Source: Octopus vulgaris
Taxonomy: Eukaryota
Direction: 5' to 3'
Assembly (NCBI GenBank): GCA_951406725.2
Contig: OX597819.1
Coordinates: 48,112,001-48,176,000, forward strand
Length of the DNA: 64,000 nt
In this document: positions 9,145-60,912 of the stretch, one piece after another
Numbering within the stretch: the first letter of the stretch is position 1
How the letters are laid out: each line of letters opens with the position of its first letter
The notes under the pieces: generated by a model
The model's database searches: none
The model's input: the letters and a program-made list of their open reading frames with translations, nothing else
Told to the model about the DNA's origin: nothing
Position numbers and translations under genes: made by a program

Positions 9145-9373
9145 TTGACCCTTTTGTTACCTTAATTCTGTTGAAATACATGCTTTTCTTACAGTTAATT
9201 TTTAAAATAATGAAAAATTTAATAAAGTAACTTTATGCATGTTAACTTAGTATTTGGAACATAAATTAACATAAGATTTTTCCGGAAAATTTTAACTTAG
9301 ATCTCTTCAAAACAAGAGGTTTGTATCATGGAATCAAGACCAGTTTCAGGTGGGTTAGTATCAAAAGAGTTAA
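9145..9373 (-). mobile_element. piggyBac-like MITE, family A
   Basis: CCCTTTTGTTAC...GTATCAAAAGAG-TTAA termini. The reverse complement aligns by eye to the copies at 10348, 18457 and 44575. Confidence 0.7.
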
Positions 9374-10235: not shown

Positions 10236-10281
<46 letters not shown>

Positions 10282-10347
10282 AATGTCTTGTGCAATTTTC
10301 AAGAGTATTGAAAAGTATAGACAGCTTGGTTCTGTTCAGTAAGATCA

Positions 10348-10570
10348 TTAGCTTTTTGATACCAACTGACCTGAGACTGCCTCTGAGTTCTATGAAACAA
10401 ACTTCCTGTTTTAAAGTGTTGTAAATAAAAACCTTTCATCAAACTTCCTTATTTGTTCCAAACACTGACTTAATCATGACAGTTATTTTACTAAATTCTT
10501 TATTATATTTAAGACTACTTGAAAGAAAGGCTCTTTATTTCATAAGAAATATGATAATGAAAGCAATAAG
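10348..10570 (+). mobile_element. piggyBac-like MITE, family A (degenerate)
   Basis: Internal similarity (GATACCAAC...CAAACTTC.TGTTTTAAAGTG...TTATTTTACTAAATTCTT) to the other copies. Confidence 0.6.
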
Positions 10571-12839
10571 TCCAACCACTCTCTCTCTCTCATCATCTCA
10601 CATTTTCATGATTACTAAGAACATAAATATTCTAATTAATCATACAGAAAATGATATAATACATTTAGTATAAATTAGCACCTACTTTTCCAGTCTGGAA
10701 TATATTGTAAGTGTTGTATCTATATTTGTGGTAGGGCCTAATTTCAGTATCCTCTTCTTTTAATAGCAGGATCTATCTATTGGTCTGTATTAGTTAATAG
10801 AGTGCTACCATATATATATCTATGCATCACTTGTTATACTTAATCTCTGTTTATCAATTGGGTTGCATTCAGTCCTACCCTCATCATTTCATCTAAAATC
10901 ATTTTATATAGTTGACAGGCTGTCTACCAGGTAAACCCGTTATCCTCTATAGACAAATTGAATGCTGTGTTATTTGATATACACACACAATACAGCCCTC
11001 TGCTATATCCATATGTAATTAGGTTGGTAATGTCCGTATAAATTTTGAAGATAGTGGCTCCAATTTGATCTCGGCCATAATGGCAAATACTAGGAAAGAA
11101 TCCAAATTGTATCACAAACTAGATCAAGGGACTTAACTCGGGTTATTACAATTTATTGAGAAAGCTATACGTACTTGATAGTCCAAAAAGTAATCCGACT
11201 ACATGTGCTTTTACAAAAATTCCCGTTAGTAAGTAAATGAAATTAAAATAACGACTGTCGGAAGTTTGCTTAACAGAAACTTCAGGAACAGCTAGCTTGT
11301 TTTCATTTTATCGTTCTAAAACCACTAGAATTTTTTAAAGAACCCTATTAACGTAAGGTTGTATTTTGTTGGTTTTAAATAATTGAATCGTTATTGTAGT
11401 TAACACTCAATAGCTTTTGTTAGAAATTTCCAGTTGCCAGTGTTTACAGAATTTTTTGTTTTTTGGAATAACATTTACGGTGTAAAAAGCAGTATAAAAG
11501 CATTACCATATATGATGGTATGTAACACGCACTTTTTTCCCTCCAATAAGCTGAAAAGCACTAAAAGCTTTATTTCCTAAATACACGTTGCTACAATTAA
11601 TTGATGTGCATCTAATATGCCATCAAATACGGTAAGTAAAAATATATATTGAAAAATATATTATGGCGCTGGAAAAGGGAGATAACAGTGTATAACTATA
11701 GCGTTCTTAAACGTTTATTGCACTTTTCCCACCTGTACAGATATATAGTTGACTGTTGAATATCCTGTAAATCTTAGGTCCAGATTTTACATCTGATTCA
11801 ACTAATAAATTCACCTTAGAAATATGAACAAAATAAATTAAAAAGTAAATATAAATAATTCTTTTTTTTATAATTATCCAGTTGCTGTAAACATTTTCAT
11901 TTAACACTTGTATTGACAAAGTTCTTATCGTTTGCTTAAGATCAACCATCAACATAATAAAGTTTGCAGCACAGAGAACATTTTATTTTATGTCTGACTA
12001 TTTGAGATGAACTGTGATTAATAAGATTGTAATGGGAGAGACAGCTGTTAATATCAGTTTTAGAGTTTGTATTTTACACATATACTGCATTTTATTCAAG
12101 TTGATCAATTCTTGTCACCAGGTTCTATATTCCTGGTTGTGTGCATGATCCTACATTGGATTTGAAGAAGGACTCTTATTTCTAAATTACGGGTAACAGC
12201 ATTTTTATCTCCTGGGCGCCTGGTGCATTTCAGAGCCAGTTTGGGACCATGTGCATAACCAGGAATAAGATACCTGATGAGGATTTGAGATAAGAACATT
12301 GAAATGTAGTGTAGATGTTAGATATACGTCAATATTCGAGGGTTGCCCAATATTGTCCTCTGGCAACTACTTGGATACAAATTTATCTCTAACTCTGTTT
12401 TGAAATTTATTCTTTTACTATAATAAAGCAACAGGGAAAGAGGATTTGAGTTCATATATCATTAGCAATAAAAGCAACACATAACAATGTTATTTCACTT
12501 ATTTATGAACTTATGATGAACAGATATCAAAACCAAATAGAGTTTTGTGAATTAGACTATTCCATAACAACAGAACGTATCATCATCAACATCTTCCTTT
12601 AATATCCAATTTATCGTGTTTGCATCGGTCAGACGGAATCTATTGAGACAAATTTTCTAAAGCCAAATGCCCTTCTTGTTGCCAACCATCACCTGTTTCC
12701 AAGTAAGGTAATATTTCCCCACAGCCAGACATGTTTTTCCTTAAGACTGAAAATGAGCAACATCACTTGTATGACAGTGATGCTGGTTGACAAGTGTCAC
12801 ATGATGTTAAGACAAAGTAATGCATGCGCACTCACACAC

Positions 12840-12985
12840 ACGACATGCTTCTTTTCAGTTTCCCTCTACCAAATCCAATCAGATGGCTATGGACGGCTTT
12901 GAAGACACCTGCCCAAAGTTCATGTTGTGGGACTGAACCCAAAACAGTGTGGTTGGGAAGCAAGCTTCTCCACCACACAGCCAGT
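12840..12985 (-). mobile_element. tRNA-derived SINE head, family 1
   Basis: Reverse complement of the 26201 SINE 5' region (A/B boxes, GGGCAGGTGTCTTC). Confidence 0.7.
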
Positions 12986-14798
12986 CATGTCTGGTAATTA
13001 AATCCAGAATGGTAGAAAGAATAATAATAAGAAAATGAGTATTTTTTTCATAAAATAGATCTAGTTTAAACAATTTTCTCAACTTTTGGATCATTTAAAA
13101 TTATAAATGGGGAAAAAATATGTAAAAATCTAGAATCAGCAAATTTATGCAGTTAGGGTTTTTTGTGCTCAGACTGCAAGATTGTGGTTTCAATTCCTGA
13201 ACCAAGGAGTGCGATTCGTTCTTGAGTAAAACAGTCCACTGACCTGTAAATAAGTAACTCAGCCATAGACAGGCATTCTATTCAGGGGAGGATGTTGTGT
13301 TGGTCACTTAAATACCATGGAAAAAAGGTGACCAGTCCTATGATTCTTAGAACTTAAAACAGTAATCTCTAGTGGTTGATGATGATGATAACTTCATCTT
13401 AGTTTGGGAACCCCTACTTCATACCATCCAACTTATGTAAGCATGGAAAAAACATAGAATGATTGTGGTAATACAGCAGCAGCAACAGATGTCTTCTAGC
13501 CATTTATTCTGTTAAACTTGGGGTGATATTAAGCAAACACATGGATTGGATTTTCATTGTCCACTGCAGAACAAAGGCCTTGGCTTGTTCTCTCTGCCAA
13601 CTATGGTCCTATTTGCAGACTGTGAATTTGAGCTTGAGATCATACTAGTTTGATAAGCCTACTCTGCCACACTGGCTCAACATGGCTTTACAAAGAGGTT
13701 TTTTTTTAATACTCATAGCCAGGAGTAAAGTCGTTTACATCGACCCCAGTGCTCAACTGGTACTTATTTGAACATATGTTCAAATATAAGGTGAGGCATT
13801 TTCCAAAAATTGTTACTCAAAACTGTAGAAATAACCTTACAAGTAGTCATCTTAGGGCCCATGGCAGAGGTCTGAGTTGAAATCCTGTTGAGGTTAACTT
13901 CACTTTTTATCTTTCTGGGATTTACCAGTTAAGTACTACAGTCAATACCTCTGTCTGTCTCCCTCCTTTACTCTACATTGTGGAAAGAAACATGGGAGAC
14001 CACTCACAGCTTTCCTTTCTCCAGAAATAGAGATGGACTGAATCCTTTGTTCAGTCTAGAGTTTTACTTTTACAAAAACTGATGTTACTGAAACTGTCCA
14101 AGGATGAGTGAATGTGCAGAATGATAATAATAATAAATGTATAAATATATGACTGTGTGGTCAAGATGTTTACTTTGCAACTATGTAATCTTGTTCAGCC
14201 CCACTGCACAGCAACTTGGGCAAGTGTCTATACAGCCCCTGGTCAATCATACACTTTTGAGTGAATTTGATGGATGGGAAGTGTTCAGAGCCTATCGTGT
14301 CTTTGTATCTATGTGTGCATGTGGTCATCATCTTTTAATCTCCATCTCCAGTGCTGGCATGGGTTGGCTAGACCTGAGGGTTCAGACACCTACATCATGC
14401 TCTAACATCTGCTTTGGTATGATTTCTATAGCTGGGTGCCCTTCTTTACCCTAACCACTATATAATAATAATAATGATGATGATGACTAACTTACGATAT
14501 ACAGTGCTCAGGTGCACTACAACTCACCAGAAAAAGTAACCAAAACTACATAGAGTATGCACAGGAAGTGAACTGTGACTAAGTCTTAAAAAAACAATAA
14601 AAACAGCAGCGGTTGGGGCATCAGGTGTACTGCTAGCGAATTTTAAGGAAGCATGGCAGTTTTGAAGGATGTAGTGTCTCGACAGCTAACAACTAATGCA
14701 GGTAGTTTATTCCATGTGTATGTAATATAGTGTGCATACACAGGTTGTGATTATGACTCTGATCTCATTGTTTTTGTGCCTATTCTTTTCTGTTTCAG

Positions 14799-15027
14799 TT
14801 CGAGAGAACCAGTCCAATAGAGGCCAGGCTGCAACTGTCCTACAACTCAACCTCAGTCAGTCATCTCCCAGTAGTGACTCTCATCTTCCATCAGGAATTG
14901 TTTCATCTTCACTAGTAGCAGGTTTAAATAATGTGACCTCCAATAAAATAATCACTGCATCAAAGTCTGCTTTACCAGTCCTCAAGCTTACGGCAAAGAA
15001 TCCCTCTGCTCTTGAATCCTATAAAAA
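14799..15027 (+). CDS. EPC1: EPC exon, Ser-rich low-complexity region (IRENQSNRGQ...SALPVLKLTAKNPSALESYK)
   Basis: TTTCAG acceptor, GTAAGC donor, phase 1-2, which bridges the flanking exons exactly. Confidence 0.85.
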
Positions 15028-15332
15028 GTAAGCATCCCGTTATTACTTAATGATTTCACTAATTACTCTCTCTCGGTTTGTTCTTTATATTTTCAATTAT
15101 TTTCTTTTGTTTCTTTTATATATTTTATATTTTATTCTTGTACGTTTTGGATTTACCAGTTAAGTACTCGAGTCAATACTGTTCTGTCTGTCATTCTCCT
15201 TACTTTGCATTGTGGAAAGAAACATGGGAAACCACTCACAGCTTTTCTTTCTCTAGACTTTTACTTCTACAAAAAAACTGATATGTTACTGAAACTGTCC
15301 AAGGATTAGTGAATGTGCAGAATGTTAATAAT

Positions 15333-36971: not shown

Positions 36972-37151
36972 TCATGCTGATTGTGTTTGTACATAGTTGG
37001 AAGGCAACATTCCTCGTTCACCCGTTCGTTCAACAGTGCCTTCCATCCAACCCTGATCAATCGGCTGGCAATGGATAATGATATCACCTTCCATAAATGA
37101 AACCTCATCAGTGTCAGCAGCGCTATAGTCATAGATGGCCTTGGACACTAA
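36972..37151 (-). CDS. LASP1: LASP/nebulette-family terminal exon encoding the SH3 domain ([23 protein letters not shown]...[26 protein letters not shown])
   Basis: TCTTGCAG acceptor, phase 0, TGA stop. Close match to the LASP1 SH3 (AVYDYSAADEDEVSFQDGD...[21 protein letters not shown]). Confidence 0.93.
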
Positions 37152-39332: not shown

Positions 39333-39370
39333 CCCTTTTCCAGCATACGGATTCTGATGGTGTGCAGGAG
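39333..39370 (-). CDS. LASP1: LASP penultimate exon, 38 nt (APAHHQNPYAGKG)
   Basis: TTTTTAG acceptor and GTAAGT donor. Phase 1-0 is exactly what is needed to join the phase-1 linker exons to the phase-0 SH3 exon. Confidence 0.85.
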
Positions 39371-43090: not shown

Positions 43091-43881
43091 TTACATAATT
43101 GGTTGGGTTGTTAAGATTTATTCAGGAATTTGTTAGTTATGTGTAAAGTACCAAGGTTAAATTGTTAGCAAGGAAGTGGTGCATATTAAAGCAAGCTGTT
43201 AAAGATTTGTGAAGTATTTGTTAATTTGACATTTGCTTCAGGACACACAAGTTTAAAAATCTTGTCTGCTCAAAATTGTTAATGAGTTTATTCCTGACAG
43301 TTGGAGAAGACGAAATGTGTTGGATATTAAATTCCTCAGACAAAATTAAGACTGTTTTTTTTTTCCTTCCTATGTTTATAGTTTCCAGGAGAGCAGAAAG
43401 AAAATTGGAGAAAGCCAAGAAGCATAAAAAATTATATTTATAAAAACAAAACATTTAAGAAATTTAATAAATATTTTTAAAAAATCCAATAAATGCCAGC
43501 AAAAAAAACAAAAGGGTGTAAACAGAATTAAGAGTGGTTTTAAGCCAAGAAAACAAATGAAAATGAAACAGTAGTCATATCTAAGATTGTTTAGTGATGC
43601 ATGATGCAGTACGCTGCCAGTGGTTTGATTCTCTAAAGAACCGAGTCTTCATAGAATAAGATTTGATGTATCTTCAAATCAAGTTGTTTCCAAATGCTTC
43701 AGAAATATTCTCAGATTTGATGTATTTTGAAGACAAAGGAAAAGATTCACTCTCTAAACTAAGAAAGCAGAATAGATTGCTGAAGCTCAAAATACATGTT
43801 TATCTATATAAAGATGTTGAGAAAAAAGCACTTGGAAATGTTCCTGTGCTCAGCAATTGGTACCTGGATCATACACTCTAC

Positions 43882-43977
43882 CTTTCCGCTCCTGGTCTGC
43901 TACAAGGGAGCCATATTGGTTATTCATAGGGTCATAATCAGCAATTGATCCAATGCGACGAGAAGAACCATTCTCAA
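43882..43977 (-). CDS. LASP1: LASP linker exon (VENGSSRRIGSIADYDPMNNQYGSLVADQERK); possible alternative donor extends it to 43864
   Basis: CTCTTCCAG acceptor, AAG|GTAGAG donor (or CAG|GTACCA 18 nt further), phase 1-1, open frame, GSIADYDP motif. Confidence 0.85.
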
Positions 43978-44574
43978 CTGGAAGAGAAATGCAGTAATCA
44001 AGCAAAAATCAAGCCAAGCCAACCTCAAGCTGCTCAGTAGAGAGATGTTAAAGCAGCAGTTTTAGATTTTCATTCATTAATGATTCACAATCAAAATTCT
44101 TTAAAATGTGTGGAACAAAAACAACAACACAATATATTAAAATTTACTGCTGTGATATAACACTGAGGATAAACCAACAAACAAGTGAGTTTTGTGGTGA
44201 AGGAGGATTAAGTGCATGGGGAGGGGAGTAAAAAACAACAAACAAATTAAAACAAATTTTTTTTTAAATTAGGTATTTGATGATTGATGAATGAGATACA
44301 GAAAAACTGAATTATTTTATATCTAAGAAAAATTAATGCTAAGATTCTAGAATACTTTAAGAGATTATTTCAATAGTTTAACACATTTTAAGTAAAGTTA
44401 TATAAATCATAATGTGCAACACACTGTTAAAGTTAACTTGAAATTTATAACTGCAATTTTATGAGAATTTATTTTCAGTCTCGGGTCAAAAGACTATTTT
44501 TTACAGGTCAATAACTAGAAAATGGCTGTAAAAATGTCTCTTCTTACATTACATGCACATTTAGATTAAGACCA

Positions 44575-44785
44575 TTAACCCTTTTGATACCAACATGCCT
44601 GAGACCACACCTGGTTCTATCATACAAACTTCTTGTTTTAAAGTGATCTAAATTAAGCCCTTCCATCAAAATGCCATGTTTGTTTATGTTTCAGATAACC
44701 AGCTATTTTAGTAAATTCCTCATTAAAATTTTTTTTTTTAAACAAAGACAGTACATTTCACCAGAAATAAAATTGCATAAAGATT
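44575..44785 (+). mobile_element. piggyBac-like MITE, family A
   Basis: TTAACCCTTTTGATACCAAC start; similarity to the copies at 9145 and 10348. Confidence 0.65.
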
Positions 44786-45304
44786 GTAAACCTTAAAAAA
44801 ATATTAAAAAATAAGTAAAAATATATATAAAATAAGTGCCCTTGGTTTTATTTGGGTTTCTTAATGATTTCTTTCTTTTCATATGAAAAACCCTTGATTC
44901 ATTGCAGCTTGTGGCAAAATGTAATTTATAGTCACTCTAAAAATATTAACCAATGAGGAAACAGGCAACATTCTTAACTCTGAAATGTTTCACGTCTCTC
45001 TCCACAATATCAGATACCCTACATGAATTTCAAATTGAGAACAGTGATTCCCTTAGCTTTTCTATTACAGAGACCATGAATATATGAATTAGATTTTAAA
45101 AAGTTGCTTTGGCATTGGCAAATGCAAGACTTAAAACTAGAGCCAGTTTATTCAAGATTGGCACACACCCAGTACAGTACTTAAATACTTCTTGCACTGA
45201 CCATTTCTGATTTAAAATTGAACTTCAACAACTCCAGAAGTTCTGTTTGTCATATTTCCAGCTTAAGTGATCTATTATATAAAGTCTTTTACTCTTTTTT
45301 ATAT

Positions 45305-45618
45305 TCTTTTACTTGTTTCAGTCATTTGACTGCGGCCATGATGAAGCTTTGCCTTTAGTCGAACAAATCGAACCCAGGACTTATTCTCTGTAAACCTAGT
45401 ACTTATTCTACTGGTCTCTTTTGCCAGACTGCTAAGTTACGGGGAGGTAAACACACCAACATTGGTTGTCAAGCAATGGTAGGAGGATGGACACACACAC
45501 GGCAGGCTTCTTTCAGTTTCCATCTGCCAAATCCACTCACAAGGCTTTGGTCAGCCTGAAGCTATAGTAGAAGACACTTGCCCAAGGTTCCATACAGTGG
45601 GACTGAACGCAGAACCAT
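45305..45618 (-). mobile_element. tRNA-derived SINE, family 1 (5'-truncated)
   Basis: Reverse complement of the body and tail of 26201-26610. Confidence 0.82.
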
Positions 45619-45632
45619 ATAAATAAACTGTG

Positions 45633-45679
<47 letters not shown>

Positions 45680-45847
45680 CATGTAAATGGGTGTGACTAC
45701 TAGCAAAAGTTAACAAAAGCAGTTTAGGCTTGTGTGACATGTGGCATGTAAATAAAACAACTACTATTTCTCTGACATACAGATGTGTCTGCATTCAGTT
45801 TATTCAGAAAAAAACAGACATCAAACTGATCAAAAATCTTGTGGTTT

Positions 45848-46212
45848 GATGAGTTCAAATTGAATTTGTTCAGTTCTGACAGCCAAGTGCTTGTCTGACA
45901 TTATACAGGAGAATTTCATGCAGAGTTCATGAATTTGAGAGTTAAGCATGGTGGTGGTTACATCATGGCTTGGCTCTGCATGTCTAGAAAAGTGGTCCTA
46001 ATCCTGTACATTAAATCAAGTGCATCACGAACAGTTAGCCTGTCTGAAAATCTTAAAAAAGACTATGCTTCCATCTGATAAGGGTTAGGCTAGTCATTGA
46101 TTTTTGAGCTTGATGACTCTCGGTATAGGTCAAAAAGACATCTAAGAATTCATCAAAAACAAGAAAACCCATTGACTGTGCCACATTGGTCAGCACAATT
46201 CTGGATTATTTA
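45848..46212 (+). mobile_element. Decayed Tc1/mariner transposase fragment
   Basis: Remnant motifs DEFKLNLFSSDSQVLV, VKHGGGYIMAWLCMS and WSAQ (compare Tc1 DESKFNLFGSDG, VKHGGGSVMVWGC, WPAQSPDL), with stops and frameshifts. Confidence 0.8.
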
Positions 46213-49200
46213 GCACCCCACCACACACACACACACACACACACACACAAAGAAACTCTGAAGTTTCATTTAGTGTGAACATCAAATTTACTGATACGAT
46301 TCCATATTAAAAAATTCTGGTGTTGGTGCTATATGATCTTTAATACACAAAATTTCATTTTGTTAAAATAGATATACTTTAAATATTCTTCAATAAATGT
46401 GGCATTAATGATACTGTCAATTACTGCATTAGGCTAATTTTAAAGATCTCTTTCTATTCATATACACACATATTTGAATTGCAAGTGATTAAATTAACAG
46501 AAGTAATTAATGTTTAATCATCAGTACATTATCTTTAAGTGATGCTATCATATGTCCCTTTGTAATGAATATCGCAATCAAAATAAATAGCTAAGATAAA
46601 TTTAGATGCATTCCATTTTCTTTTGGCAGTGGGAGGATGCTGTGAATCCTTCCCCCCTCCCCCCTTTCCTAGAAGCAATATTAATAATGCCAATGCATCT
46701 TTGAATTGGTTCTCCTATTCTCTTTCCAGTGCACATATCATTGTGCAGCAATTGCTTTGGCAGACACCACTTGACTATGTGAAGGATAAACCAAATAAAA
46801 TCTCAAGCAAGATGAAGCAGTGTGTAGGATGACCTCTGAAACAATGACTTTAATCTTAGGTTCCTGTCATCTTGTTGTGCAACATAACTTTCATGTTTTT
46901 GCAGAGGCAGGAAATATCATAAATGAGTGTCCTGATTGGTATGTCTGCTGCTGCTGTATAGTCCATGTTTCAGCAGACAGCTGAAAGGTTGTAAGAACAA
47001 CAGCACAATCCTCTTTATTTCAGTGATGTATAACCAATTCCTCAGCAATCCCACACCTTCTCACAGACTACAAGTTACTTTTGGAGATCTAGATGCTGAC
47101 CTCAACAAAAATATTCACAGCTCTTGAGAAAATACAGACAAGATAAATAAAAGGGGTCTCTACTGTTTTCAAGCTCTGTCCTTTGATTTTCTGAGACTGT
47201 TTTCTATGAACAGGCTGGAGTGTGACTTCAATTTTTACAACACTCATTTTGTTGCTGGTTTTATCAGGAGCAGTAAGAAATATATCCACACAAGTTTTTG
47301 CATTAAGGTTTTGCAGTTTTGTTTTTTTTTTTCTCTCAAGTACACTTGCTATAATACCAAAGAAAACATCTAAACTGCAATGAGAATTTAAAAAAAAACT
47401 TGAGTGACTAAATTTAGGGCAAAGACATCTGGCAACTCATACGGTTATAACATTAATTATAACAAAAGCAATGCATTTTTATGAGTAACCAAACTTAACC
47501 TTAATTTTCTCGTCGTCTCTGCCAAATAATTTGCAAGGCTTTTAAGCCACTAAAGGAGTACTTGTTATTTGAATAATAGTTGTCTTGCAGCAAACACATT
47601 TGCAGTCTCTAGGTTTGAAGAGACAATAATGCAGGCAAGTGTTTTGGCAGCAACAGACAAAAGGCAAATTCCTTTGAGTTTGTCATAAGATAGGCAATTT
47701 CCTTTGCACTTGTTCAAGAAAACTATATAGACACTATCTTGTGAGACAATTCTCTGTAACTATAAAGCACAGAAGAAATAAATTTTATTTTTATTGTTTT
47801 TTTTCACAGATTGCAATGGGAATGACACCTGACCCTGAAATGGGGCTTGATTGATAACCTTGACATTAGAAGGAATATCAAGTGTAGCACTGCTCTAAGA
47901 CAAGTTATAGTTTCTACATAGATAAATGAGCAATTTATCTTTGACTTTGCTCCTTGTCAATTAGTAGGGTTTTTGAGCGACAGTGGTCATCAAAGCATTA
48001 CATCCCACTCAGTTTATTGTGATAGCATAAATCTTCTGGGTGACAGTCTTCCTTGGCCTATTTCACACCAAGCTGGCAGACAACATTTCCTTTATTTCTA
48101 TTTTCATGTGGATTTATGGTTGTTAAAACAAAAAGTCATTTCCCAGCTAACAGCAGCTGTATTTCCTCTATTGTCACCAAACCAGTCTAAGTTCTTATAT
48201 GTAACTTGTCCAAATTAATCAATAACAATAACACAGATGTTCACTTTCAGAATATAACTGTCACAACCGCTAGAAACACTTAGCAATATCACTTAATACT
48301 ACGTTGTTGAAGCTAACTAGATTAGTATAAAAGAGGTTACATTAACCTAAACATCTATATTGCAATATACAGAATAATAATTGCCAAATAGATCAAAAGT
48401 TGGTTCTTGAATGAAGAATGAGGAGAATCATACTTCATTGATGACATAACTATATATTATGTACTTGAGTTACATACTGAACTCTTCTATCCTCCTCCTA
48501 GGCAAGTTATGAATTAAGTAAGAAGAAAGAAAGAATTGGCTGAGGTAGCATCACTTCATAACAGGTTAGTTGTATTTTAAAATGCGAAGTTGATTATCCT
48601 AGATTTATCGGTTAGAATTAGTAGTGTTGCAGCATTTCAGGGAAACTATAAAAGTAGATCCAAGATCAATCTGAAACGAGTGTGTCACTGACCACCTGCC
48701 TACCCTCACTCCTGCCCTACACTTAGGATGAAATGATTATTACTGATTGTGCAGTGTGCTACGTATGATGTCATGCATAAGTTACTGCTCGATGCACAGT
48801 GATAATGTTCAACAAAGAGCAACAAAAGTTAGAGATGTAGGATGACAAGTCATGAGGTTAAAATTTCATAATAAAATCTGTTAGCAAGGTCCAACATACA
48901 ATCAAGAGTTACTTTGATGGATGTCTACGCAAAATAAATACAAGTATAACTGGACTAAAATATTAATAAAATAGTTTGTTAGTTTCTAGGTGATGAAACA
49001 ACATCATTCTGACATTATTGTGTAGCTTGTGCAATTGCTAGTTTATATACACACACTCACACACGTTTATTTATATGGGAAGCAAACAGAAATTACATTC
49101 CCAGTCTATAATTTCATTCAATCAGTCCTTTGGTCATTTCTTTCAATACACTAACATGTACAGTTAACCAGACGCTGACTGAGTAAAACTGTGGTTTAGG

Positions 49201-50338
49201 ACTAAACCCCATTTATCTCACGCATAATAAATGTATGAATGCAAGGCTGTATGGAGCAGTTGTGTGTGTGCATACACACACACACTACAATTTAAGGAAA
49301 TTGCCTTTCATAATATACCTTTTCTTCCTCACCTGTAATAAAGCTAAAGATTTCTTTTGTTCAAATCAGGTTTTATATTATGTTCCTGTCTTAATAGTGA
49401 GAATTTCATAATCAGTTATATTGTTTGAAAGAGATAAACACCATATTCTCACAATTAGTAAGAACAAAACCCTATAATTTTAAAGTTTCTTAACTCTTTC
49501 ATAATTTTCTATTACACATACTGTTTTATGTAATACAACAATAAAAGCCATAATTAAATTGTTTGGTTTATCTATTATTAGCAATTGTGAAATTATTACT
49601 AAGTAATGTTATCAGCTTCTCTTTAATCATCTATGTATATTCTCTAAACAATTCCATTTTTCCACACTAACCAGTGGACAATCTTGTATGTTTACTTAGT
49701 GATTCTTTAACATATATAGTTAAAATCTGTCACCGATGAGATTATAAAACTGAAACATGTATGGAGTTACTTCTCATACTTGCCAAAATTAAAATATGAG
49801 CCATTGACTAAAATTGTTGTTTATTCTATACATAATTATTTCTAGCTAGCTTTTTAATGTTTCCAACATTAAATGTGTTAACATTAAACAAACAGTTTTA
49901 CTATTAGTTAAATTAAAGGTCAAATCAAAGTTGCCTTGTCATTATCATGGCTGTGTTGTCCTAATATCATTTAGGTTTTTTAATGGGTGATACTCCTTCT
50001 AAAAGGTAGTAGTAACTATGCTGAAGCTAACTTGCCAAAAACAGATGTTTCAAAGAACAACCAGAGCTTAATAGATTAGCTAACTGTTATGTAAGCTACA
50101 GAAGTTCTGTAGTTATCTACATTAAATCCATCATCTACCCAATTGTAGATCAGTTATCTACATAAATAAGATGTAGTCTGTGCAAAGAAGAAAGACTAGA
50201 ACAGACAACAAAAAGAAAAACAGTTTTACTTTCTATGTCAGAAAAAGATATGTGTTCAGGCATGTTCACATTTTTCAATCTGTGATAGCCACAATGGCTC
50301 TGAACATCTAGCAAACAGTAATATTTAATAGCTTTCCT

Positions 50339-51120
50339 CTCATCATCATCTTTCGGAACTCCATTGACAATCCCTTACCACACTACATGGTCCTGCATTG
50401 CTGTGTTCAGATCTCTAACATCTAGCCCTAAGTCCAGAGATATAGCATCTGGAAATGTCAGTTTCCTAGAGAAAACACTTCCAGAGGGATGCCATAGGAG
50501 CAGGGATGAGATAACCTCTTTCTCTGCTCGATGACAGTGGCCAGCAAATTGTAGCCACTTCTGCTTTAGCTTGAGGGATATTGGTATCAGATTTCCATAG
50601 GTGTTACTAAGTGTTGAGTGTGATCTCCAACTGATATTCAGTATCTTTCTGAGCAGGTTGGTATATGTTCCATCTAGTTGATTTTCTAAGAGAGCCAATA
50701 AGGTCCAGGTCTTTGATCCATAAAGAAGGACCAGCTCAGTCAGTGTTCTAAATATTTAAACTTTTAACATGGATGAAAGATTTGAGTACCAGATCTGATC
50801 AAGTCTGTTACATGCATCCCAAGCAAGAGCTTTGCAGATGCAAAAGTCCTTTTGGTAGTCTACTATGTGTGATCCAAGACATTTGAAGTCATCAACGTTT
50901 TTGATTGATATATTACTGAGCAATTTAAATTCAGTTAACTTGGAGGAGATCATGATAAACTCTATCTTACTCTCATTGCAGTAATGGCTAACCTGGTTTG
51001 TTGCTTTCTCCAGTGCTTGTAACAAAGATTCTGCATCTTTAATACAATGGGATATCAAGGCAAGATCATCAGCAAAGTCTAGATTAGTTAAATATTCAAC
51101 TGAGCTCTCTTCTTCTTCTA
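50339..51120 (-). mobile_element. 5'-truncated RTE-like LINE (RT C-terminal half to 3' end)
   Basis: ORFs 50756-51148 (LDFADDLAL, FKCLGS) and 50375-50698 (LLRKILNISW, LQFAGHCHR). (ATG)n tail at ~50339-50350; frameshifted. Confidence 0.9.
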
Positions 51121-54100
51121 TAGTTTGTGTATCTGTCAAAAAACACAAATAATTTTTTTTTAATCCTACTTTCTAGAAACTTTATAATTGTTGTGTGGAT
51201 AAAATGCCAGCAAACTTATTTTATTGATAAACATTCCTGACTCTAAATTACTAATCCAACAGATCCCAAGCATGATTAAATTGCTAGGGAATTTATGAGT
51301 TACAATGGTTTTAGTGTCATAAGCTGGATTAGCAAAATTAAATATAAAGACACTACTTGTAATTTATATTTAAAATTGATAGCATTTTACAGTCAGATGC
51401 TCCTCTGGTTGCCAACTCATCTGTTTCTCAAGTAAGGATTTCACAAGGTTTTTTTTTTTTTTTTTGAACACACAGAATCAGATCATAATGCCAGCAAACA
51501 ATACAAACATCATAGCACTGTTTTACTCAGGTAGTGACAATCAAAGTCATAGAATATCAATTTCAAGGGAGGCAAGAAGTCAATTACATGAACCCCAGTG
51601 TGCTATTGGGGCTTATTTTATCATGGCAGAATTTGAAATAAGAAGGAAAAGACAGATAAAATACTGCTAAGCATTTAGCCCAGTGTACTAATGTGACTGC
51701 CAGTTTGCCACCTAGAAATCATAGAATATTGACATTTATTCACACACTCACAAGTACGTACACACATACATACACACAATAGTTTTATGTAGCATAGTAC
51801 TAGGAATGTAAAATTAATACAGTAATATGGTAAGACCTTAATGTAGTAAATCTAGTTAATTAATATTAATATAGCTTTTACTTTCAATGTTCGCTTGTTT
51901 TTTACAATATTGTTTACAAAGTGAGTAACGAATAACTCCTTGATTTTCATTAGAGATTGTCTCTCCCTCAGACTACACTGAGCTTTTAATAATGTAGCAA
52001 GTGTCAACTATATTGACTAAATCATTCAGCATCAAATTTATTAACAGCAGATAATCTCTAAAAATATAGTATGTGAGAGAGTGGGTACATATTAGTGTAT
52101 ATGTGTATATGAGAGAGAGAGAGAGAGAGAATGAAAGAGAAATGCATGTAGGGAGAACAGTCTTCCTATCACTTTCAGATTATCGCTCAAACAAGCAAGT
52201 TAAAACAAAAAGAATTAAAAAGGTGTGTGCAGAAGGCTAAGGCCATTATTAATGAATTAAACTGATTAAGTGGATTTTAACAGTTATTGCACAAATTATT
52301 TTCTTTGAGGCTTAACATTAGCCAAATCTGCCGACAAAGATTATGGTTTATAACTGCACTCCAATTTCATATCCCTGATGAAAGATGATGTATACACATA
52401 GAAAACTTATGATGTGGTTCCGTTTCTGATTATAAGCAGCAAAAAATATCTAATTTAACAAATGTACACATAACTGCATAAAATAATCTAACAAATTAGT
52501 CATCAGTTTAAGTTTTCAAAGTAAATCTGTTCACGGAACTTCTCAAATTGACACATTCTGTTGGTTCCAAATGAATCTTTTTTTAATAAAATTGATAAAG
52601 ATGCATTCACTGGAACAAGAGATAGTGCAATACCATTTTGATAGTAAAGCTGTACAGACAGACAACAAGAATTAGACCAGTTCATACATCTTGCCAATTC
52701 TAATATCCTTTTTTAATAAGATGGCTATAACAAAGATATTTATTTCTTGCTATCAGAGAACTGATAAAAAAATGTTAACGATTTAATAAAACACACTGGT
52801 ATTGTTAATAGAATGAGGAAAAGCAAAACAAGCTAAAATAGGCTGACTGATTAATTAGTTAGGTTATGAAAGAAATGAAAGTTCCTTTTGTCTGTCAGAT
52901 AATTAAAGTTTTTTAAAAGAAGTAGAAATATATACAGAAAATATTTCTGTATATTTGATATAATACTCTTATGTTTAAATTAAGATAGATATTATATATA
53001 TATATATATATATACATACATACATACATACATACATACGCGCGCACACACACACACACAACACTATACAAAACTTTAAGGGGGAGCACAGAATCTAAAA
53101 TGTTTTTTTAACGTGTTTCTGACATACAAGTTGACAAAAATTTTATTTTTCATAGATACAACAACATCATCGTCGTCGTTTAGCGTAAATCTATTTTAAA
53201 TTGAAATTAAACAACAGGAGTAAATTAACACAACCAATCAACAGTGACATAACTGAAACATCATATTTGCTTTGTGAAGCAGTGAAGTACATAATTCAGT
53301 TGATTATGCTGAATCTTGAAGGCAAAGAAACAGAAATTCTAATACAATCTACAAATTCTTCCTAAATATAAAAGAGTGAAGTACAGCAATTGGTGATTTA
53401 CAAGGGCTAATTTAATGAGAAACAAACATTTGGTGTGCTGTATCAGTAATTACATGAGGTTTGAGTGTCAAATATTAGAATGCTCACAGGACAATTATTT
53501 TTAATAGGGTTACTACACTATAACTACCAGTGGACAACTTTTAGGGTAAAACTAACAATTACTACCAAGTGCTCAACATTGATTAAATGTTCATCTTATG
53601 CAAAAAACAAAAAAATCTTGAAATTTGGCTTGACATGATTTTGGCCTGACTACAGTCAAATATCTTCACAGCAATATTCAACAGCTCAATACTATCCATT
53701 TTAAAGGCGAATTAATTAAGCAATTCCTTCAAAATGTCACAAAATATAGTTCACTTAAAATCTTGATGAATAACAAACAATGAACAGAAAGATTGGCAGA
53801 CTATTCCACTACTTCCAGATAGTGGACAGATCTGGAAGTCTAGTTTAAGAAACTTATTGAATAGACAAAGAAAAAAACACCATCATATAAATATACAAAC
53901 AAAAATTGGCCACAACACAAACTGCTCATGCCATGTCTAGCAAGAAGCTAGCATCAAATAACTTCACTGAAATTATACTAAGCCATGGTAAAATAAAATA
54001 TATAAAGCCAGGCCATACAACATTTCTATACAGGGGTCTGGTTAGGCTAAAATTAGCTTACAATATTGAACAGCACACCTGAATTGCACAATAACAAACT

Positions 54101-55440
54101 GGAAAACAGCCTGCTCAATGATAACAACTAAACTGAACCAGAATATTCAATAAAACATTGAAGAGATTAGAAATAAAAGAGGTATTCAATCTTTCATTGA
54201 ATTAGAATATGCTATAATGATAGCTACAGTTCAGGTTTGACTTCACTTGCAAGAGAGTACAGAGTAAGGGACACAATGAAACAACATAAACACAGACAAC
54301 ACACGTATATGGACATATATAAATATATATTTCGTATATATATATATACTGAATAGACAACAATAAAAATAGACTTACTGTGAAGTATGCTATTGATAAT
54401 AGCATTTACAATAACTGATCAATGAATAACTAATAAAAGGCTCAAGAGTGTCCTTATGAACAACTACTTTTATAGAAATTTTGTATGACAACAACTAAAA
54501 CAAAATATATATTTTACAAACAGCAGATTAATAGTTAATTTATTTGGATTAGTTTGTACAAAAATTTATCAAAACTGTTATTCTCCAATTAGCAGATTCT
54601 GCTTGTAATTATAAAAGGTTTCAGTGAACAAAAAATATTCATAATTAGGCTTAAAGAAAAATTATGACAAAACAAACATGCGAACACATACAAAACAACA
54701 CATTATAAAATTTAAAAAGAAACAACTCAAGTTCAGCTTTACAAATAGTGTGTGTGTTTGTTTGTTTGTGTGTGTGTGTAAACAGAAAGAGAAAGGAAGA
54801 GAGAGAACTACTATCATCAATATATTTTATCATTAATATATTTGGATAACAAAACCAGTTTTCGAACTAGTTTATGTCTATATGACAGCCCACTCTGTGC
54901 ATTCGGCATTTTATTTCTATGCATATATAATTGATAACATTTTAATAATGCTCATTAATAAACAGCTTCAACAAAATAACAATATGGCTGTTATATTACT
55001 GTCAAACAGTATCCTTCAAATGACACTAGGAGAAATATCAGAGTTAACATCTTGAACTCATTAAATATATTAATATAAATAATATTAAAACTGTTGCACA
55101 TGTAAAAACAATATTTGAAAGAATAAAAAAAAAAAAACATTTCAAAATAATCAATATTGAAAACAATGAAAAATAGAAGTAAATTTTGTTATAGAGAATG
55201 AACTGTTAGTATAATTAGAAGAAATTGAGATGATAATCACATTAATTAAGAATAATCAAAAGAAACCAATCTTTAATCAACATCTACAATTTGTGCATGT
55301 ATGTGTGTGTGTGTGTGTATGAGAGCAATCTATTGTATTTCTCTAAAAAGAAAAAAAATTTTACTTTTTTTTTTCCTAGTAATATGAACTTAATATTAGA
55401 TTTCTTTAAAAATGATACATAGGGAAGAACAGTCACGAAC

Positions 55441-55452
55441 CTGTAGATCGAA
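55441..55452 (-). CDS. LASP1: Candidate 12-nt LASP microexon (V-R-S-T)
   Basis: Minus strand reads TTTTTTTCTTGTGCTACCCAG|TTCGATCTACAG|GTTCGT. Phase 1-1, with a TGC motif just upstream of the AG. Confidence 0.6.
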
Positions 55453-56108
55453 CTGGGTAGCACAAGAAAAAAAAAACGAAAAAAACATAGTAAATGGTAA
55501 AAATCAAAAGCATTCAAAATCAAATATATATATATATATATATTTATTATGTGTGTATACATTGCACACAAACACATACACACATTCTGAAAATTAAAGG
55601 AAATTCATTAAGAGCTAAAAACAAACATGATTATTTGAACTGCTACCAAACATCAGAAACAGAGGGCAACAACAGCTAATGAATGGAGGGAAATCTATAG
55701 AACTAATGGGTTATTTAATTTCTCTAATTATCTAACATCTCTATTTCTATTTCACTCGAAAGCAGTTGAATGAACAATAGCAACAGCAGCAACAAATGTT
55801 GTGGAGAGGGGGCAGATACTTGAGTCAACTAAGGTTTTTTACATACAGAATAATATATATGTATGAATGAATGAATGTATGTATGTATGTATACATGTGT
55901 CCATGTTTATTACAGAAAAATCTATTGGGCATACCACTAGTGAAATATTAACACACCAACTAATTCAATACAATTTTTTTTTTTTTGTTTGTTTCCTTTT
56001 ATGCTACTGGGAGAGATGTTCGGGAAGTCTAAACAGAAGCAGAAAAATGCCATGAAGCAACAATCAAGACAACACAGTTTTCCCAGCAGTGTGCAAGTGC
56101 TAACCAAC

Positions 56109-56156
56109 CTTTCTTAGATGACTTAGAACTTTCTTTGCCTTTGGCTACTTTTTCAA
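56109..56156 (-). CDS. LASP1: Candidate 48-nt LASP cassette exon (VEKVAKGKESSKSSKK)
   Basis: CTGTTTCTAG acceptor, AAG|GTTGGT donor, phase 1-1, open and purine-rich. Confidence 0.65.
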
Positions 56157-56476
56157 CTAGAAACAGTTCAAATCAAAATAAGGATGAAATCAGCAAGATC
56201 CCATGGATCCCATATTTTATATATGATTACAATGTAAAAAAACAAAAAACAAAACAAAAAAAAAAAAAAATTCTAACTAATTTACCCATATGCTTAAGGT
56301 CTATGATTTTAATTACTAATTATTGGTTTCAAACATTATTGATTTCTATTATTGGGACCATGCCATAAATTTGTGTAGTCCATCATCAGTTGAATTGATT
56401 CCAATACATAACTGAACATATTTACAAACCTGAATGTGTGTGGCAAGATTTGAACATTGAACATAGAAAACATTAA

Positions 56477-56689
56477 CCCTTTAGCATTTAAACTGGCCAT
56501 ATGAGGTCCGGACATTCTGTTTAATGTTCAAACTGGCTAGATCCAGCCTCATACCTACCTTACAATGCCATTCTAAAAATAAACGATCACATCATTGAAA
56601 TTTTGAAGCTATGAGATAATGCACGATAAATTAAAACCATGTGAATAAATATGCATTACATTTGACAATAAAATCTAAATGCTAAAGGG
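56477..56689 (+). mobile_element. Intact piggyBac-like MITE, family B (213 bp)
   Basis: Perfect 14-bp TIRs CCCTTTAGCATTTA / TAAATGCTAAAGGG with TTAA duplications at 56473-56476 and 56690-56693. Confidence 0.9.
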
Positions 56690-57753
56690 TTAAAAACTAA
56701 AAGGAATTCATTCCAGCACTGGTTATCATTTCTGCCATTTGAATGACAAAAATAAAATAATTCTAATTTCAGACATGGCCAAACTAGTTTGAAATTCAAT
56801 TCAAATTATTTATACTACAAAGATTAGAATATTAGAATATCTCTCCTTCAAAAAGTTGTTTACTTTCTGGCACAAAAAGACATTGGTGAACCAATTTATT
56901 TAGATTGTTACTAATGTTAAACCATAAAGTAATGTTCTCTCAACAGATTATGAAATAACTATGATTAATTTGCCAGATATCGACCACACGAGTACTTAGA
57001 TAGGATCAAACCTTTCATATGCAAACATTCTCTCAGCAAAAATATTTCTCAACTCTTTGATGTTGTTGGCTACTTAAGGTGCCAAGAAGGCCACTTGCAC
57101 AAATATTTGCTTTTGTTTTCCTTATCATTGATTCAGATATTATATATCTACATGAAGTATTATTATAATAGTTTGTCAAAAGATGTCTCACAGCATTATC
57201 ACAAAGCAGAAATGAATAGGATGTGCAAAGTTCTATGCTAAGTAATATCTGTCCCTCATTGTTGAATTTCCTTTAGTAGTTTTTTTTTTTGTTTTTCAGT
57301 GTAAGTATTAATTTGGTGGGGGCAATAATCATAAACAGAAAACATACATGGAATATTACTACTCAACTAGTGAAAACAGCAGATTGCAAGGAAAAAAATA
57401 TTTGCTTTAATGATAATTTTAAACATAATCATGACAAAGGAAGGAAAGCAATCTAACATATTTAGGAACCTAACAGACATTTTTTTCAATCTATATAATT
57501 TTAAAATTCAGTGCTAAGTGAAAATGAAGTTTGAACTAGATTAAATTTATCAAGTACTTCAAACTATTACACCTAAACATTAAAAACTTCTTGTCAAAGT
57601 GACAGCTTGAACAAGTGAAATTAATCACATATAATATTAAATTTGCTAAATGCAGTGAATCATTATTACAAAAGTCAATTTGAAGAGCTAGCTAAGCATT
57701 TGTGGGGAGAGAAAAAAGAAGCCAGGAGGCAGACTGCATGTGCTAAAACCAAC

Positions 57754-57789
57754 CTGTCTTAGCTGCTGAAGTATTTTTGGATTTGTCCA
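57754..57789 (-). CDS. LASP1: Candidate 36-nt LASP cassette exon (VDKSKNTSAAKT)
   Basis: TTTTTGGTTTTTTTAG acceptor, CAG|GTTGGT donor, phase 1-1, open. Confidence 0.7.
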
Positions 57790-57903
57790 CTAAAAAAACC
57801 AAAAAGCTAAATAATTAAACATGAGCTGATATTTTAAGACAGATGAAATCTATTATGATATCCAACAATGAAAGTTTGGAAGGGGAAAAAAATTATTACT
57901 TAC

Positions 57904-57912
57904 CCAGCTTCT
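57904..57912 (-). CDS. LASP1: Candidate 9-nt LASP microexon (E-K-L)
   Basis: TGTTTTTTAAG|AGAAGCTGG|GTAAGT. Consensus donor and phase 1-1, but the AAG acceptor is the less common type. Confidence 0.4.
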
Positions 57913-60711
57913 CTTAAAAAACATTTAGAACAATACATATAAACAATTTATGTTTAATCAAAAGTTGATTTACTTACAGAATAGAAAATTTAAAAATAAA
58001 AAAAAAATCAAATCAAAGAAACAATTGTTTGTTATGTTAGGAATCAAACAAAACATCACCATATCAAAAGAATATATAATGCAATTTAGACAGGCATCAG
58101 AGATAAGTCAAGAAATTTAAGCTTTCTAATACTATAAAGTCTATAAACATGTATACACACTTGGTTGAAAGATAAACTTTAGGATGTATACAACTGAAAG
58201 TTTATTAAAATGTTTTGAATATTTATCATGAATAAATTATGCGACAGCTTTACATAGATAAAACTCCAACAGAGCTATTTCAAAATCCAAGAACTGAGCA
58301 ACAATACTAAACTAGTTTTAAGTTGAGTGTTAGACAGCTAATTGCATTAAAAATTATTAAAAACTTGTGTACTGAGTCTGACCATCCCTTGCCCATCTCT
58401 GTTTCAGAAGTCAACAGAGTCTTCAATCATGTCAAAAGCAGACAGAGTAGATGCAAGTGTCCTGACTGCCAATCTGCACCTAAGCTAGGTAAACAGAATA
58501 TAAGCAATTCTTTATGGCAATATATAGACAGAAGCTCAAAATACTTAGTGTACAAGGCCTATAGGCTGGCCTTCAGCATCCAATAAAATATCTGTGTCAA
58601 TGAACTGCTCAGTTAGAGCTGACCAGGGCTATCCAATAACGGCCAGAGGGATTGATGGGTTCTTTCATATTCTTTATATATGATAATCACAAAGGATTCA
58701 AAATCAACTTATAAATAAGAGCCTACCAAGGATCTCACAATTAACAAATGAGAGAAGTGTGTATACATTTTTATCAGACATAGTGTATATTTTCTAAATA
58801 AAAACTATAAAAAAAACTTATCAAAGATACAGCTTTTTGTCTCAAACCACAATCATTAGACATAAAATGCTACATATTTATATAAACATTGTATGATACA
58901 CATTATAGTTGTAATAGAAGATCTTTTAAGCAATATTCCATTTGTAAATATAATAAAGTTTAATTCATTAGTGCTGGAGTAGATATTTTAGTGTAGAATG
59001 AATACATTTTTATGAATAATAGATATTTCCTCATAATCCAAAAATGGTTAATTTAGTATATGCTAAATTAATTTAACTTATTAATTTGGGTTATCAAAAA
59101 AATAAAAAAAATAAAATAAAGTGAAGTGAATTAAGTATGCAACAATGAAATAACTCTGAAATACATGTTGCTGTTTACTTCCAGCTTGGTCCTGATCAGA
59201 TAGAATTATGATAAAAGGCAATCCAGCCATGACCATCTCAGAGTTTTTTCAGAGACAGTGCATTTAGGACCACATAAGACAGCAGGGTTTGTGGCTTTAG
59301 GGATGTTTAGTTGTTATTTCTTGCAAGTCAAGCAACTGCTTAAAGGCTTTCAGTTAATATGTACATATATTCTATATTACAGAACTCTAGGGTAGTATTT
59401 AATAGCATGTTTTTATAGCAATTTGAATAATAAAATCTCCACAAATTTTTTTTTTTTTTTGCCAATTATAAATAGATTTATAAGATACAGAGCAGTAAAT
59501 TTTAAAAGTTATTTCTAACATATAGTGTTACATATTAATAATAATTAGAAAATTTTAAGTACAGTGAAATGAAGATTTTCACCAATGAAAAGTAATTCGG
59601 AAGAAAATGTGAAAATACAATGACCCCAAATACCACCAAGTGCATATTGCAGAAGAAATGCATAGAAAGGTAGTGCTAAGTGATAGGCAAGGTTCTGTCA
59701 GTGCAGTAAAGGAACACAACACTGGTACAAAAGAGACACTCTTTGAGCGGACAATGTTTACTAAAAGCATGGAAATGCCCTTTTCTCATCTTACCCCATT
59801 TATCATTAACAAAATGGCAGCAGCTCCATTATTTGTAACACATAAAAGGCTACCAAAATGTTTATAGATATAGTCAATTGATTTATATGAGAGGAAGGGG
59901 TGAGTCAACATGACTTCAGTTTGCTTAATGCTTGTGATATCAACCCTGGTGAGATTGACAAAATTGATTATGGCAGGACTGTTATGGAGGATAGAGAGAA
60001 ACCAGGCATTGCAATGCACCATATTCAGCTCACTACACTTTCTCAGCTGCCTTGAGTAAAATTCCAGAGAAGGTGAATGGGGTTAAGGCAATCATTTTAC
60101 AATACATCTTGGAATAAATCCCACAAATGCAACAAATTATCATCATTGTCTCACTGAGATTTAACATTCTTAAGAACTGCTTCAAGTTCAGCATATTCTT
60201 CGTCTACGTTTCTTTGACACTAAATCTAGACAAAAGCAGCCTTAAAACATTTCAGTGATAAAAAATAGAAAATGCCAGATAAATGGATTTCTGTTAACTT
60301 GAAGAAAAGAAAAAAAAGAAAAAATATATATTTTAATGGCAACATTTTGACTTCATTCTTAGTTAGCCACTCTAAAACTAATTTTATATATTAGCTTATT
60401 CTTCTACACATTTGACTTAGAATAGAAACTGTTTTATATATTTATGGAAAGATAAAAGTTTTTTTCCTTTTTTTCCAAAAAATCTTGCTTTTTATATACA
60501 GTGTATTGTCAATGAATTCTGTGTTGTTATATTCAGAACAATAAAGTTTACAGAGGAGTTTATAATTTGCTGTTGTGTGTGAATATGTGTATCATACAAA
60601 TAGAATATTGTTGACAATATTCTATAACAGAATTCAAAATAAACTTACTGACAACCAACATTGAGATTTATTAAAATATTTAACTGATAAATGTTTGGTT
60701 TCCAGACTCAC

Positions 60712-60912
60712 CTTGTCCAATTCTAGAATCATAAATGGTAGTGGCCTGGGACTTAGCAGAGTATGGGGAGCTGAATGATGAATTCTCTTGGTAGGGGTCG
60801 TAGTCACTGATCTTACCAGGTCGCCCAATGCTGCCAATTGTGGGGACCCCACTACCACCTCCACCAGCTGCAGCAGTAGTAGAAGACATAGGAGGAGGAG
60901 GAGGAAGACCAT
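60712..60912 (-). CDS. LASP1: LASP linker exon (DGLPPPPPMSSTTAAAGGGGSG...GKISDYDPYQENSSFSSPYSAK...DSRIGQ)
   Basis: CTCTTTGGTAG acceptor, AAG|GTGAGT donor, 201 nt, phase 1-1, second DYDP motif. LIM and nebulin-repeat exons are expected beyond the window end. Confidence 0.85.

What the first reader, a model, noticed from the sequence alone, without database searches (positions are those of the whole stretch)
55441..57912. Hidden cluster of frame-preserving mini/microexons in the LASP linker
Seen: within the ~16.7-kb 'intron' between exons 60712-60912 and 43882-43977 there are at least four short segments with AG/GT boundaries. All are phase 1-1, multiples of 3 and stop-free: 9 nt (57904-57912, EKL), 36 nt (57754-57789, VDKSKNTSAAKT), 48 nt (56109-56156, VEKVAKGKESSKSSKK) and 12 nt (55441-55452, VRST). 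Inference: any subset could be included without a frameshift, giving a combinatorial Lys/Ser-rich insert between the two DYDP motifs of an actin-binding adaptor. Gene finders and the ORF track miss segments this small.
Basis: partly seen in the sequence, partly recalled or inferred. Interest (0 to 1): 0.75.

Follow-up and report, generated by a model that had tools for sequence, protein, structure and literature searches.

The report
Optional mini-exons in octopus LASP linker
Three of four tiny segments in an octopus actin-binding gene (LASP) are real optional exons that public gene models already contain, and they likely let tissues change the length and charge of a flexible linker; the fourth has no transcript support.

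Summary
The window holds the 3' half of an Octopus LASP gene (LIM, nebulin repeats, SH3) on the minus strand. All four segments exist as described. The 36-, 48- and 12-nt segments are real exons: they are spliced in transcript contigs and occur in 16, 19 and 15 of 36 octopus database proteins, so they are not hidden from annotation. The 9-nt EKL segment is in 0 of 36 proteins, contigs join across it in 6 of 7 runs, and its acceptor is AAG: probably not an exon, though not excluded. The 36- and 48-nt exons look like tandem duplicates with a shared intronic motif. A cuttlefish-type transcript has a similar Lys/Ser insert in place of both DYDP exons. The 12-nt exon has some neural-microexon features. 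Linker splicing is family-wide (oysters, fly, shark nebulette). Verdict: real, largely annotated, modest interest; tissue pattern and function untested.

The parts
60712..60912 (-). Cassette exon A, 201 nt, phase 1-1, first DYDP motif (GKISDYDP); optional
   Evidence: In 23 of 36 octopus proteins; included in X11, X3, X19 and skipped by a contig in X1
57904..57912 (-). 9-nt candidate (EKL); unsupported, probably intronic
   Evidence: 0 of 36 proteins; contigs join across it in 6 of 7 runs; AAG acceptor against 16 of 16 YAG, strong donor; AG-free zone 58 nt
57754..57789 (-). Cassette exon B, 36 nt, VDKSKNTSAAKT
   Evidence: Spliced in an X1 contig from the last nebulin exon to B to C, depth 80.9; 16 of 36 proteins
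57729..57753 (-). Donor and intronic motif after B, similar to that after C; possible shared regulatory element
   Evidence: Alignments
56109..56156 (-). Cassette exon C, 48 nt, VEKVAKGKESSKSSKK; likely tandem duplicate of B
   Evidence: Joint 56156-57754 with CT..AC ends in X1; 19 of 36 proteins; B and C exon-plus-flank units align at score 60 against a maximum of 42 in 3016 controls
56086..56108 (-). Donor and intronic motif after C
55455..55586 (-). 132-nt AG-free zone with a 13-nt pyrimidine run and TGC at -10 before the 12-nt exon
   Evidence: 4 of 884 AGs in the intron have a zone of 130 nt or more
55441..55452 (-). Microexon D, 12 nt, VRST
   Evidence: X11 contig joins A to D to the 38-nt exon (loose end at 60712); 15 of 36 proteins
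43864..43977 (-).
   Evidence: X14 record 9 and joint 43977-60712 in X6 and X14; 22 of 36 proteins, each with the 18-nt extension where checked (35 proteins; P0106 lacks E)
39333..39370 (-). 38-nt exon closing the linker, present in all full-length octopus proteins examined
   Evidence: loose ends in X3, X11, X19
36972..37151 (-). Last coding exon, SH3 domain and stop

Best explanation
The 36-, 48- and 12-nt segments are real, optional, in-frame exons of octopus LASP that form a five-cassette linker together with the two flanking DYDP exons, likely spliced in tissue-biased sets, while the 9-nt segment is likely not an exon. Shown: every cassette is a multiple of 3 in phase 1-1 between the last nebulin exon and the 38-nt exon, so any skip keeps the frame; different runs show different main paths (X1: nebulin exon-B-C; X11: A-D-38; X3: A-E and A-38; X19: A-38). 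Inferred: B and C arose by tandem duplication and are co-regulated through their shared downstream motif; they add a basic Lys/Ser/Thr spacer (28 aa, net +6) that can stand in place of the conserved DYDP motifs, probably in a muscle-type form with extra nebulin repeats; D is probably a neural, eMIC-type microexon. Inferred protein effect: a change in length, charge and phosphorylatable sites of a disordered tether between the actin-binding repeats and the SH3 domain, and gain or loss of the DYDP short motifs, tuning localisation rather than fold.
For: Spliced contigs. Isoform census: 21 of 32 combinations, EKL in 0 of 36. Exon map and phases. B/C similarity, score 60 against a control maximum of 42 in 3016. 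Cuttlefish-type P0050 has a 27-aa Lys/Ser insert (net +4) at the same junction with both DYDP blocks absent, like O. vulgaris P0035; alignment score reached by 36 of 5000 shuffles. Among 20 non-RefSeq cephalopod proteins, 5 of 6 lacking A carry extra nebulin repeats against 3 of 14 with A (Fisher p 0.018, not independent). D has a 132-nt AG-free zone and TGC at -10, features listed for eMIC exons in PMC8797185 (passages). B-D residues have pLDDT about 35 in a low-confidence model (mean 53). Linker phosphorylation at S146 lowers actin binding of human LASP1 (PMC4381576 passages).
Against: No tissue is known for any run, so 'muscle' and 'neural' are inference. P0013 has C with both DYDP exons and no extra repeats, and RefSeq lists B and C separately and with A, so the sets are not strict. 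The downstream motif alone is weakly distinctive (18 of 4413 control GT sites score as high). YGCY counts after B and C (2 and 3 per 150 nt) are within background. D has no CTAAY branch point in -45..-15, and TGC near the acceptor also occurs in E, the SH3 exon and a nebulin exon. B and C are poorly conserved beyond cephalopods (column occupancy 0.22 and 0.17). In fly flight muscle a short-linker Lasp rescues fully (PMC4137052 passage). Contigs drop rare variants, and eMIC exons have weak acceptors, so the 9-nt is not excluded.
Confidence: 0.65

Rival explanations
1. Free combinatorial code: each small exon is included independently, giving a menu of functionally distinct linkers in the same cells.
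For: 21 of 32 combinations and 20 of 21 junctions occur in database isoforms; all are frame-neutral.
Against: 25 of the 36 proteins are RefSeq predicted isoforms of one species; runs laid show one or two main paths each; the B+C-without-DYDP form recurs in octopus and a cuttlefish-type transcript.
Confidence: 0.15
2. Tolerated variation: the linker is a dispensable disordered spacer in which symmetric exons arise by duplication, persist because they keep the frame, and have little function.
For: Inserts at this junction differ between lineages (9-aa blocks in oysters, long blocks in snails); low conservation of B-D; a short fly isoform rescues.
Against: A similar basic insert at the same junction in a cuttlefish-type transcript; B-C is a main path at depth 80.9 in X1; the intronic motif is retained after both B and C.
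Confidence: 0.2
3. The 9-nt EKL segment is a real, rarely included neural microexon that short-read annotation misses (compatible with the rest of the best explanation).
For: Donor score 5.1, higher than those of B, C and D; only 0.28-0.44 such segments expected per 16.7 kb on the both-sites test; 58-nt AG-free zone, about the top 4%; a cuttlefish-type protein has a 3-aa insert, ETT, after exon A (P0011).
Against: 0 of 36 proteins; the X1 contig runs from the nebulin exon straight into B; AAG acceptor, no TGC in 60 nt, longest pyrimidine run 6; summed score at background; ETT could equally match D or be an alternative acceptor.
Confidence: 0.2

Closest known systems
O. sinensis RefSeq LASP isoforms X1-X28 (e.g. 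XP_036359930.1), O. vulgaris CAI97241xx models, O. bimaculoides XP_052824630.1
   Same: Same gene; exons B, C and D are already in these models in many combinations; the one O. bimaculoides protein seen has B and C.
   Different: None of the 36 seen includes EKL; they carry no tissue or functional information; 5 of 20 members of one cluster were not listed.
Drosophila Lasp
   Same: LIM-nebulin-SH3; four isoforms differ only in the linker (PMC4137052, passages); two related motifs in the linker (P0069).
   Different: The paper describes all fly isoforms as differing only in the linker after nebulin repeat 2; octopus also varies repeat number through seven optional exons, and uses small basic exons.
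Vertebrate LASP2/NEBL (lasp-2 and nebulette) and the nebulin serine-rich region
   Same: Shark proteins show two independently optional linker blocks at the same place, one with PGSIFDFDP and one Ser/Lys-rich (P0109-P0124); alternative splicing of NEBL is described (bioRxiv 10.64898/2026.10.05.756842, passages).
   Different: Vertebrate blocks are 31 and 48 aa, not mini-exons; homology of the shark Ser/Lys block to B/C was not tested.
eMIC/SRRM4-dependent neural microexons
   Same: D is 12 nt, symmetric, with a long AG-free zone, a pyrimidine run and a nearby TGC.
   Different: No CTAAY branch point found; neural specificity untested; B and C exceed the usual 27-nt limit (limit recalled) and lack a nearby TGC.

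Membership tests
LASP (LIM and SH3 protein, nebulin family) | N-terminal LIM domain | tested here: met
   PF00412, E 3e-12 on P0022; its exons map upstream on the same contig
LASP (LIM and SH3 protein, nebulin family) | Nebulin repeats | tested here: met
   PF00880, 8 stretches on P0022; exons mapped
LASP (LIM and SH3 protein, nebulin family) | C-terminal SH3 domain | tested here: met
   PF00018; exon 36972-37151
LASP (LIM and SH3 protein, nebulin family) | F-actin binding | not testable with these tools
   Reported for other invertebrate lasp (passage); inferred here
Symmetric cassette exons (B, C, D) | Multiple of 3, same phase on both sides, seen both included and skipped in transcripts | tested here: met
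Symmetric cassette exon (9-nt EKL) | Seen included in any transcript or protein | tested here: inconclusive
   0 of 36 proteins; joined across in 6 of 7 runs; contigs cannot show absence of rare forms
eMIC/SRRM4 neural microexons | Length 3-27 nt (recalled definition): exon D | tested here: met
   12 nt
eMIC/SRRM4 neural microexons | Length 3-27 nt (recalled definition): exons B and C | tested here: not met
   36 and 48 nt
eMIC/SRRM4 neural microexons | Long AG exclusion zone, UGC near the 3' splice site, long pyrimidine tract: exon D | tested here: met
   132 nt, TGC at -10, run of 13; feature list from PMC8797185
eMIC/SRRM4 neural microexons | Strong CUAAY branch point: exon D | tested here: not met
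   None in -45..-15; further upstream not searched
eMIC/SRRM4 neural microexons | Neural-specific, eMIC-dependent inclusion | not testable with these tools
   Runs carry no tissue label
Mutually exclusive duplicated exons (B versus C) | Never included together | tested here: not met
   B-C joint in X1 and in many proteins

The most novel reading that the evidence does not exclude
One cephalopod LASP gene reproduces by splicing much of what vertebrates spread over LASP1, LASP2/nebulette and nebulin: a bank of seven optional nebulin-repeat exons sets actin-binding length, and a second bank of five linker cassettes switches between a DYDP-motif form and a basic Lys/Ser form kept since the octopus-cuttlefish split, under separate muscle (B+C) and neural (D, perhaps also the unannotated 9-nt exon) programs.
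Probability: 0.3. Interest if true: 0.5.

Novelty: new member of a known kind. Interest (0 to 1): 0.27.

Why it matters
A 2026 preprint states that the function of the LASP linker has not been analysed even in mammals (passage). This gene offers natural, modular linker variants, with and without a short motif conserved from molluscs and insects to shark nebulette, so the question becomes testable. It may also give a compact reporter of muscle and neural splicing programs in octopus. As a discovery it is modest: the exons are annotated, and linker splicing is known for the family.

Tried and rejected
No listed holder is on record as RNA; the spliced joins themselves show RNA. One search was swamped by SINE-like repeats (116 joints and 1252 loose ends not shown), so it says little about absence; X2 showed no listed linker joint. 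Lack of cover over the 9-nt segment is not used as evidence, only joins across it. Other high-scoring candidates (52649, 39 nt; 54414, 36 nt; 44162, 15 nt) are not among the linker blocks seen in the proteins and are treated as chance. The 96-nt version of exon E was not seen in use. An MBNL-type YGCY signal was not above background. The AlphaFold model is low-confidence overall (pTM 0.22) and shows no packing of the DYDP motifs; no fold search was run. No related eukaryote genome was available, so splice-site conservation of the 9-nt segment was not tested. One search was translated in the wrong frame and not used. Paper searches listed no study of these octopus exons; most subscription papers are outside the library, and the closed supplements of bioRxiv 10.64898/2026.09.05.749416 (tissue-specific splicing, includes O. 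bimaculoides; its main text has no 'lasp') may list them. Earlier scan notes: none near this window or on LASP words.

Full report
Observation. The four segments are present on the minus strand at the stated coordinates, with AG/GT ends, lengths 9, 36, 48 and 12, and the stated peptides in phase 1. This alone is weak: the 16,734-nt intron holds 543 AG..GT, 3n, stop-free segments of up to 51 nt. With a rough score (acceptor model trained on 16 sites of this gene, including B, C and D; donor frequencies recalled) the 12-nt exon ranks 1st, the 36-nt 2nd, the 48-nt 5th and the 9-nt 9th. For segments up to 27 nt, a summed score at least that of the 9-nt is expected 4.55 times per 16.7 kb on the plus strand and 5.66 times in other sense introns. 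Requiring both sites to be at least as good gives 0.44 and 0.28, because its donor is strong. Its acceptor is AAG, whereas 16 of 16 scored acceptors are CAG or TAG.

The gene. The 201-nt exon translation matches Octopus 'LIM and SH3 domain protein' isoforms at 100%. Pfam gives LIM, nebulin repeats and SH3. The exons span about 166 kb of contig C6, whose length equals that given for the O. vulgaris models. Mapping isoforms on the window plus adjacent genome gives seven phase 0-0 nebulin-repeat exons of 105-108 nt, optional as judged from proteins with 0 to 211 extra residues there; a 175-nt nebulin exon ending in phase 1 just beyond the window; then A (201), B (36), C (48), D (12), E (114); a 38-nt exon; and the SH3 exon.

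Protein evidence. Of 36 octopus proteins (25 O. sinensis RefSeq, 10 O. vulgaris, 1 O. bimaculoides; the truncated P0015 and the Argonauta P0009 left out), A is in 23, B in 16, C in 19, D in 15, E in 22 and EKL in 0. They show 21 of 32 combinations and 20 of 21 forward junctions, B to D missing. O. vulgaris models themselves hold B (P0035), C (P0013, P0035) and D (P0002, P0007). Five of 20 members of one cluster were not listed. So three exons are annotated, and both DYDP exons are optional too.

Transcript evidence. Seven of the 22 listed runs were laid, all assembled contigs without tissue labels. X1: a 114-nt contig of depth 80.9 joins the last nebulin exon directly to B and then C, skipping A and the 9-nt segment (record 3 and loose ends; joint 56156-57754). 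X11: A to D to the 38-nt exon. X3: A to E and A to the 38-nt exon. X19: A to the 38-nt exon. X6 and X14: A to E; the X14 piece covers 43864-43977, fixing E at 114 nt. X2 showed no listed linker joint in a truncated table. No listed piece or loose end included the 9-nt segment, but contigs drop rare forms.

Relatives. Unnamed protein P0050 matches named Sepia pharaonis P0010 in 43 of 43, 58 of 59 and 68 of 68 constant residues. It carries a 27-aa Lys/Ser insert at the same junction with both DYDP blocks absent and three extra nebulin repeats, the same layout as O. vulgaris P0035 (B+C only, one extra repeat). The inserts align with a score reached by 36 of 5000 shuffles; net charges are +4 and +6. 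P0011, also matching P0010, has a 3-aa insert ETT after A; whether it matches D, the 9-nt segment or an alternative acceptor cannot be told. Oyster isoforms show 9-aa optional blocks at this junction and optional DYDP blocks; snails show long inserts. Shark nebulette proteins show two optional blocks, one with PGSIFDFDP. The DYDP-type motifs are shared from molluscs to insects, whereas B-D columns are sparsely occupied. These cross-species exon inferences rest on protein differences, not genomic DNA.

Anatomy of the small exons. B and C with their flanks align end to end through the donor and about 25 intronic bases (score 60; maximum 42 in 3016 control windows), which suggests tandem duplication and perhaps a shared regulatory element. 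The intronic 60 nt alone is matched by 18 of 4413 control sites, and YGCY density is not unusual. They are not mutually exclusive. D has a 132-nt AG-free zone (4 of 884 AGs reach 130), a 13-nt pyrimidine run and TGC at -10, but no CTAAY in -45..-15. These are among the features given for eMIC-dependent exons in PMC8797185 (passages read). In 20 non-RefSeq cephalopod proteins, loss of A goes with extra nebulin repeats (5 of 6 against 3 of 14; p 0.018; rows not independent). AlphaFold gives pLDDT about 35 over B-D in a model of mean 53 and pTM 0.22, compatible with disorder but weak.

Mechanism. Shown: five frame-neutral cassettes, with different main paths in different runs. Inferred: tissue-biased sets, a probably muscle-type B+C form and a probably neural D, alter the length, charge, phosphosites and short-motif content of the tether between the actin-binding repeats and SH3. 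By analogy, S146 phosphorylation lowers actin binding of human LASP1 (PMC4381576, passages), and phosphosites in nebulin's serine-rich region were suggested to regulate N-WASP binding (PMC7109182, passages). Against a large effect, a short-linker fly Lasp rescues flight-muscle defects fully (PMC4137052, passages). P0013 (C with A and E, no extra repeats) shows the sets are not strict.

Known and new. Linker-only isoform variation is described for fly Lasp and alternative splicing for vertebrate NEBL (bioRxiv 10.64898/2026.10.05.756842, passages), which also says linker function is unanalysed. Seven paper searches (listings and abstract starts) showed no study of these octopus exons. bioRxiv 10.64898/2026.09.05.749416 (passages) includes O. 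bimaculoides, and its closed supplements may list them. Other notes of this scan report further small-exon linkers in this genome; they are unchecked and not used as support.

Verdict. New member of a known kind; interest 0.27.

Noticed in passing
beyond the window end, G000:C6:48183859-48211598 (L001, L002, L004), minus strand: Seven optional phase 0-0 nebulin-repeat exons of 105-108 nt; isoforms carry none to six of them, so actin-binding length is set by splicing as in vertebrate nebulin.
   Followed up: partly
   Followed up: partly
window 60712-60912 and 43864-43977: The G[SK]I.DYDP motif is shared by mollusc and insect LASP and resembles PGSIFDFDP in shark nebulette; I found no known partner for it in the papers seen.
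   Followed up: partly
window about 2490-15030, plus strand: Exons of an Enhancer of Polycomb-like gene (PF06752 hit, E 5e-8, at 8483-9016), facing LASP tail to tail.
   Followed up: partly
window 50375-51172, minus strand: Broken LINE-like reverse-transcriptase fragment inside the LASP intron (RVT_1, E 0.002, below cut-off).
   Followed up: no
window about 45300-45620, 51560-51700, 56500-56680: High-copy SINE-like repeats in the intron that draw very high contig depth.
   Followed up: no
   Followed up: no
window 60874: Run X19 (organism F) has a 3-nt insertion in exon A's Thr/Ala stretch; O. bimaculoides P0018 also has a longer Thr run there.
   Followed up: no
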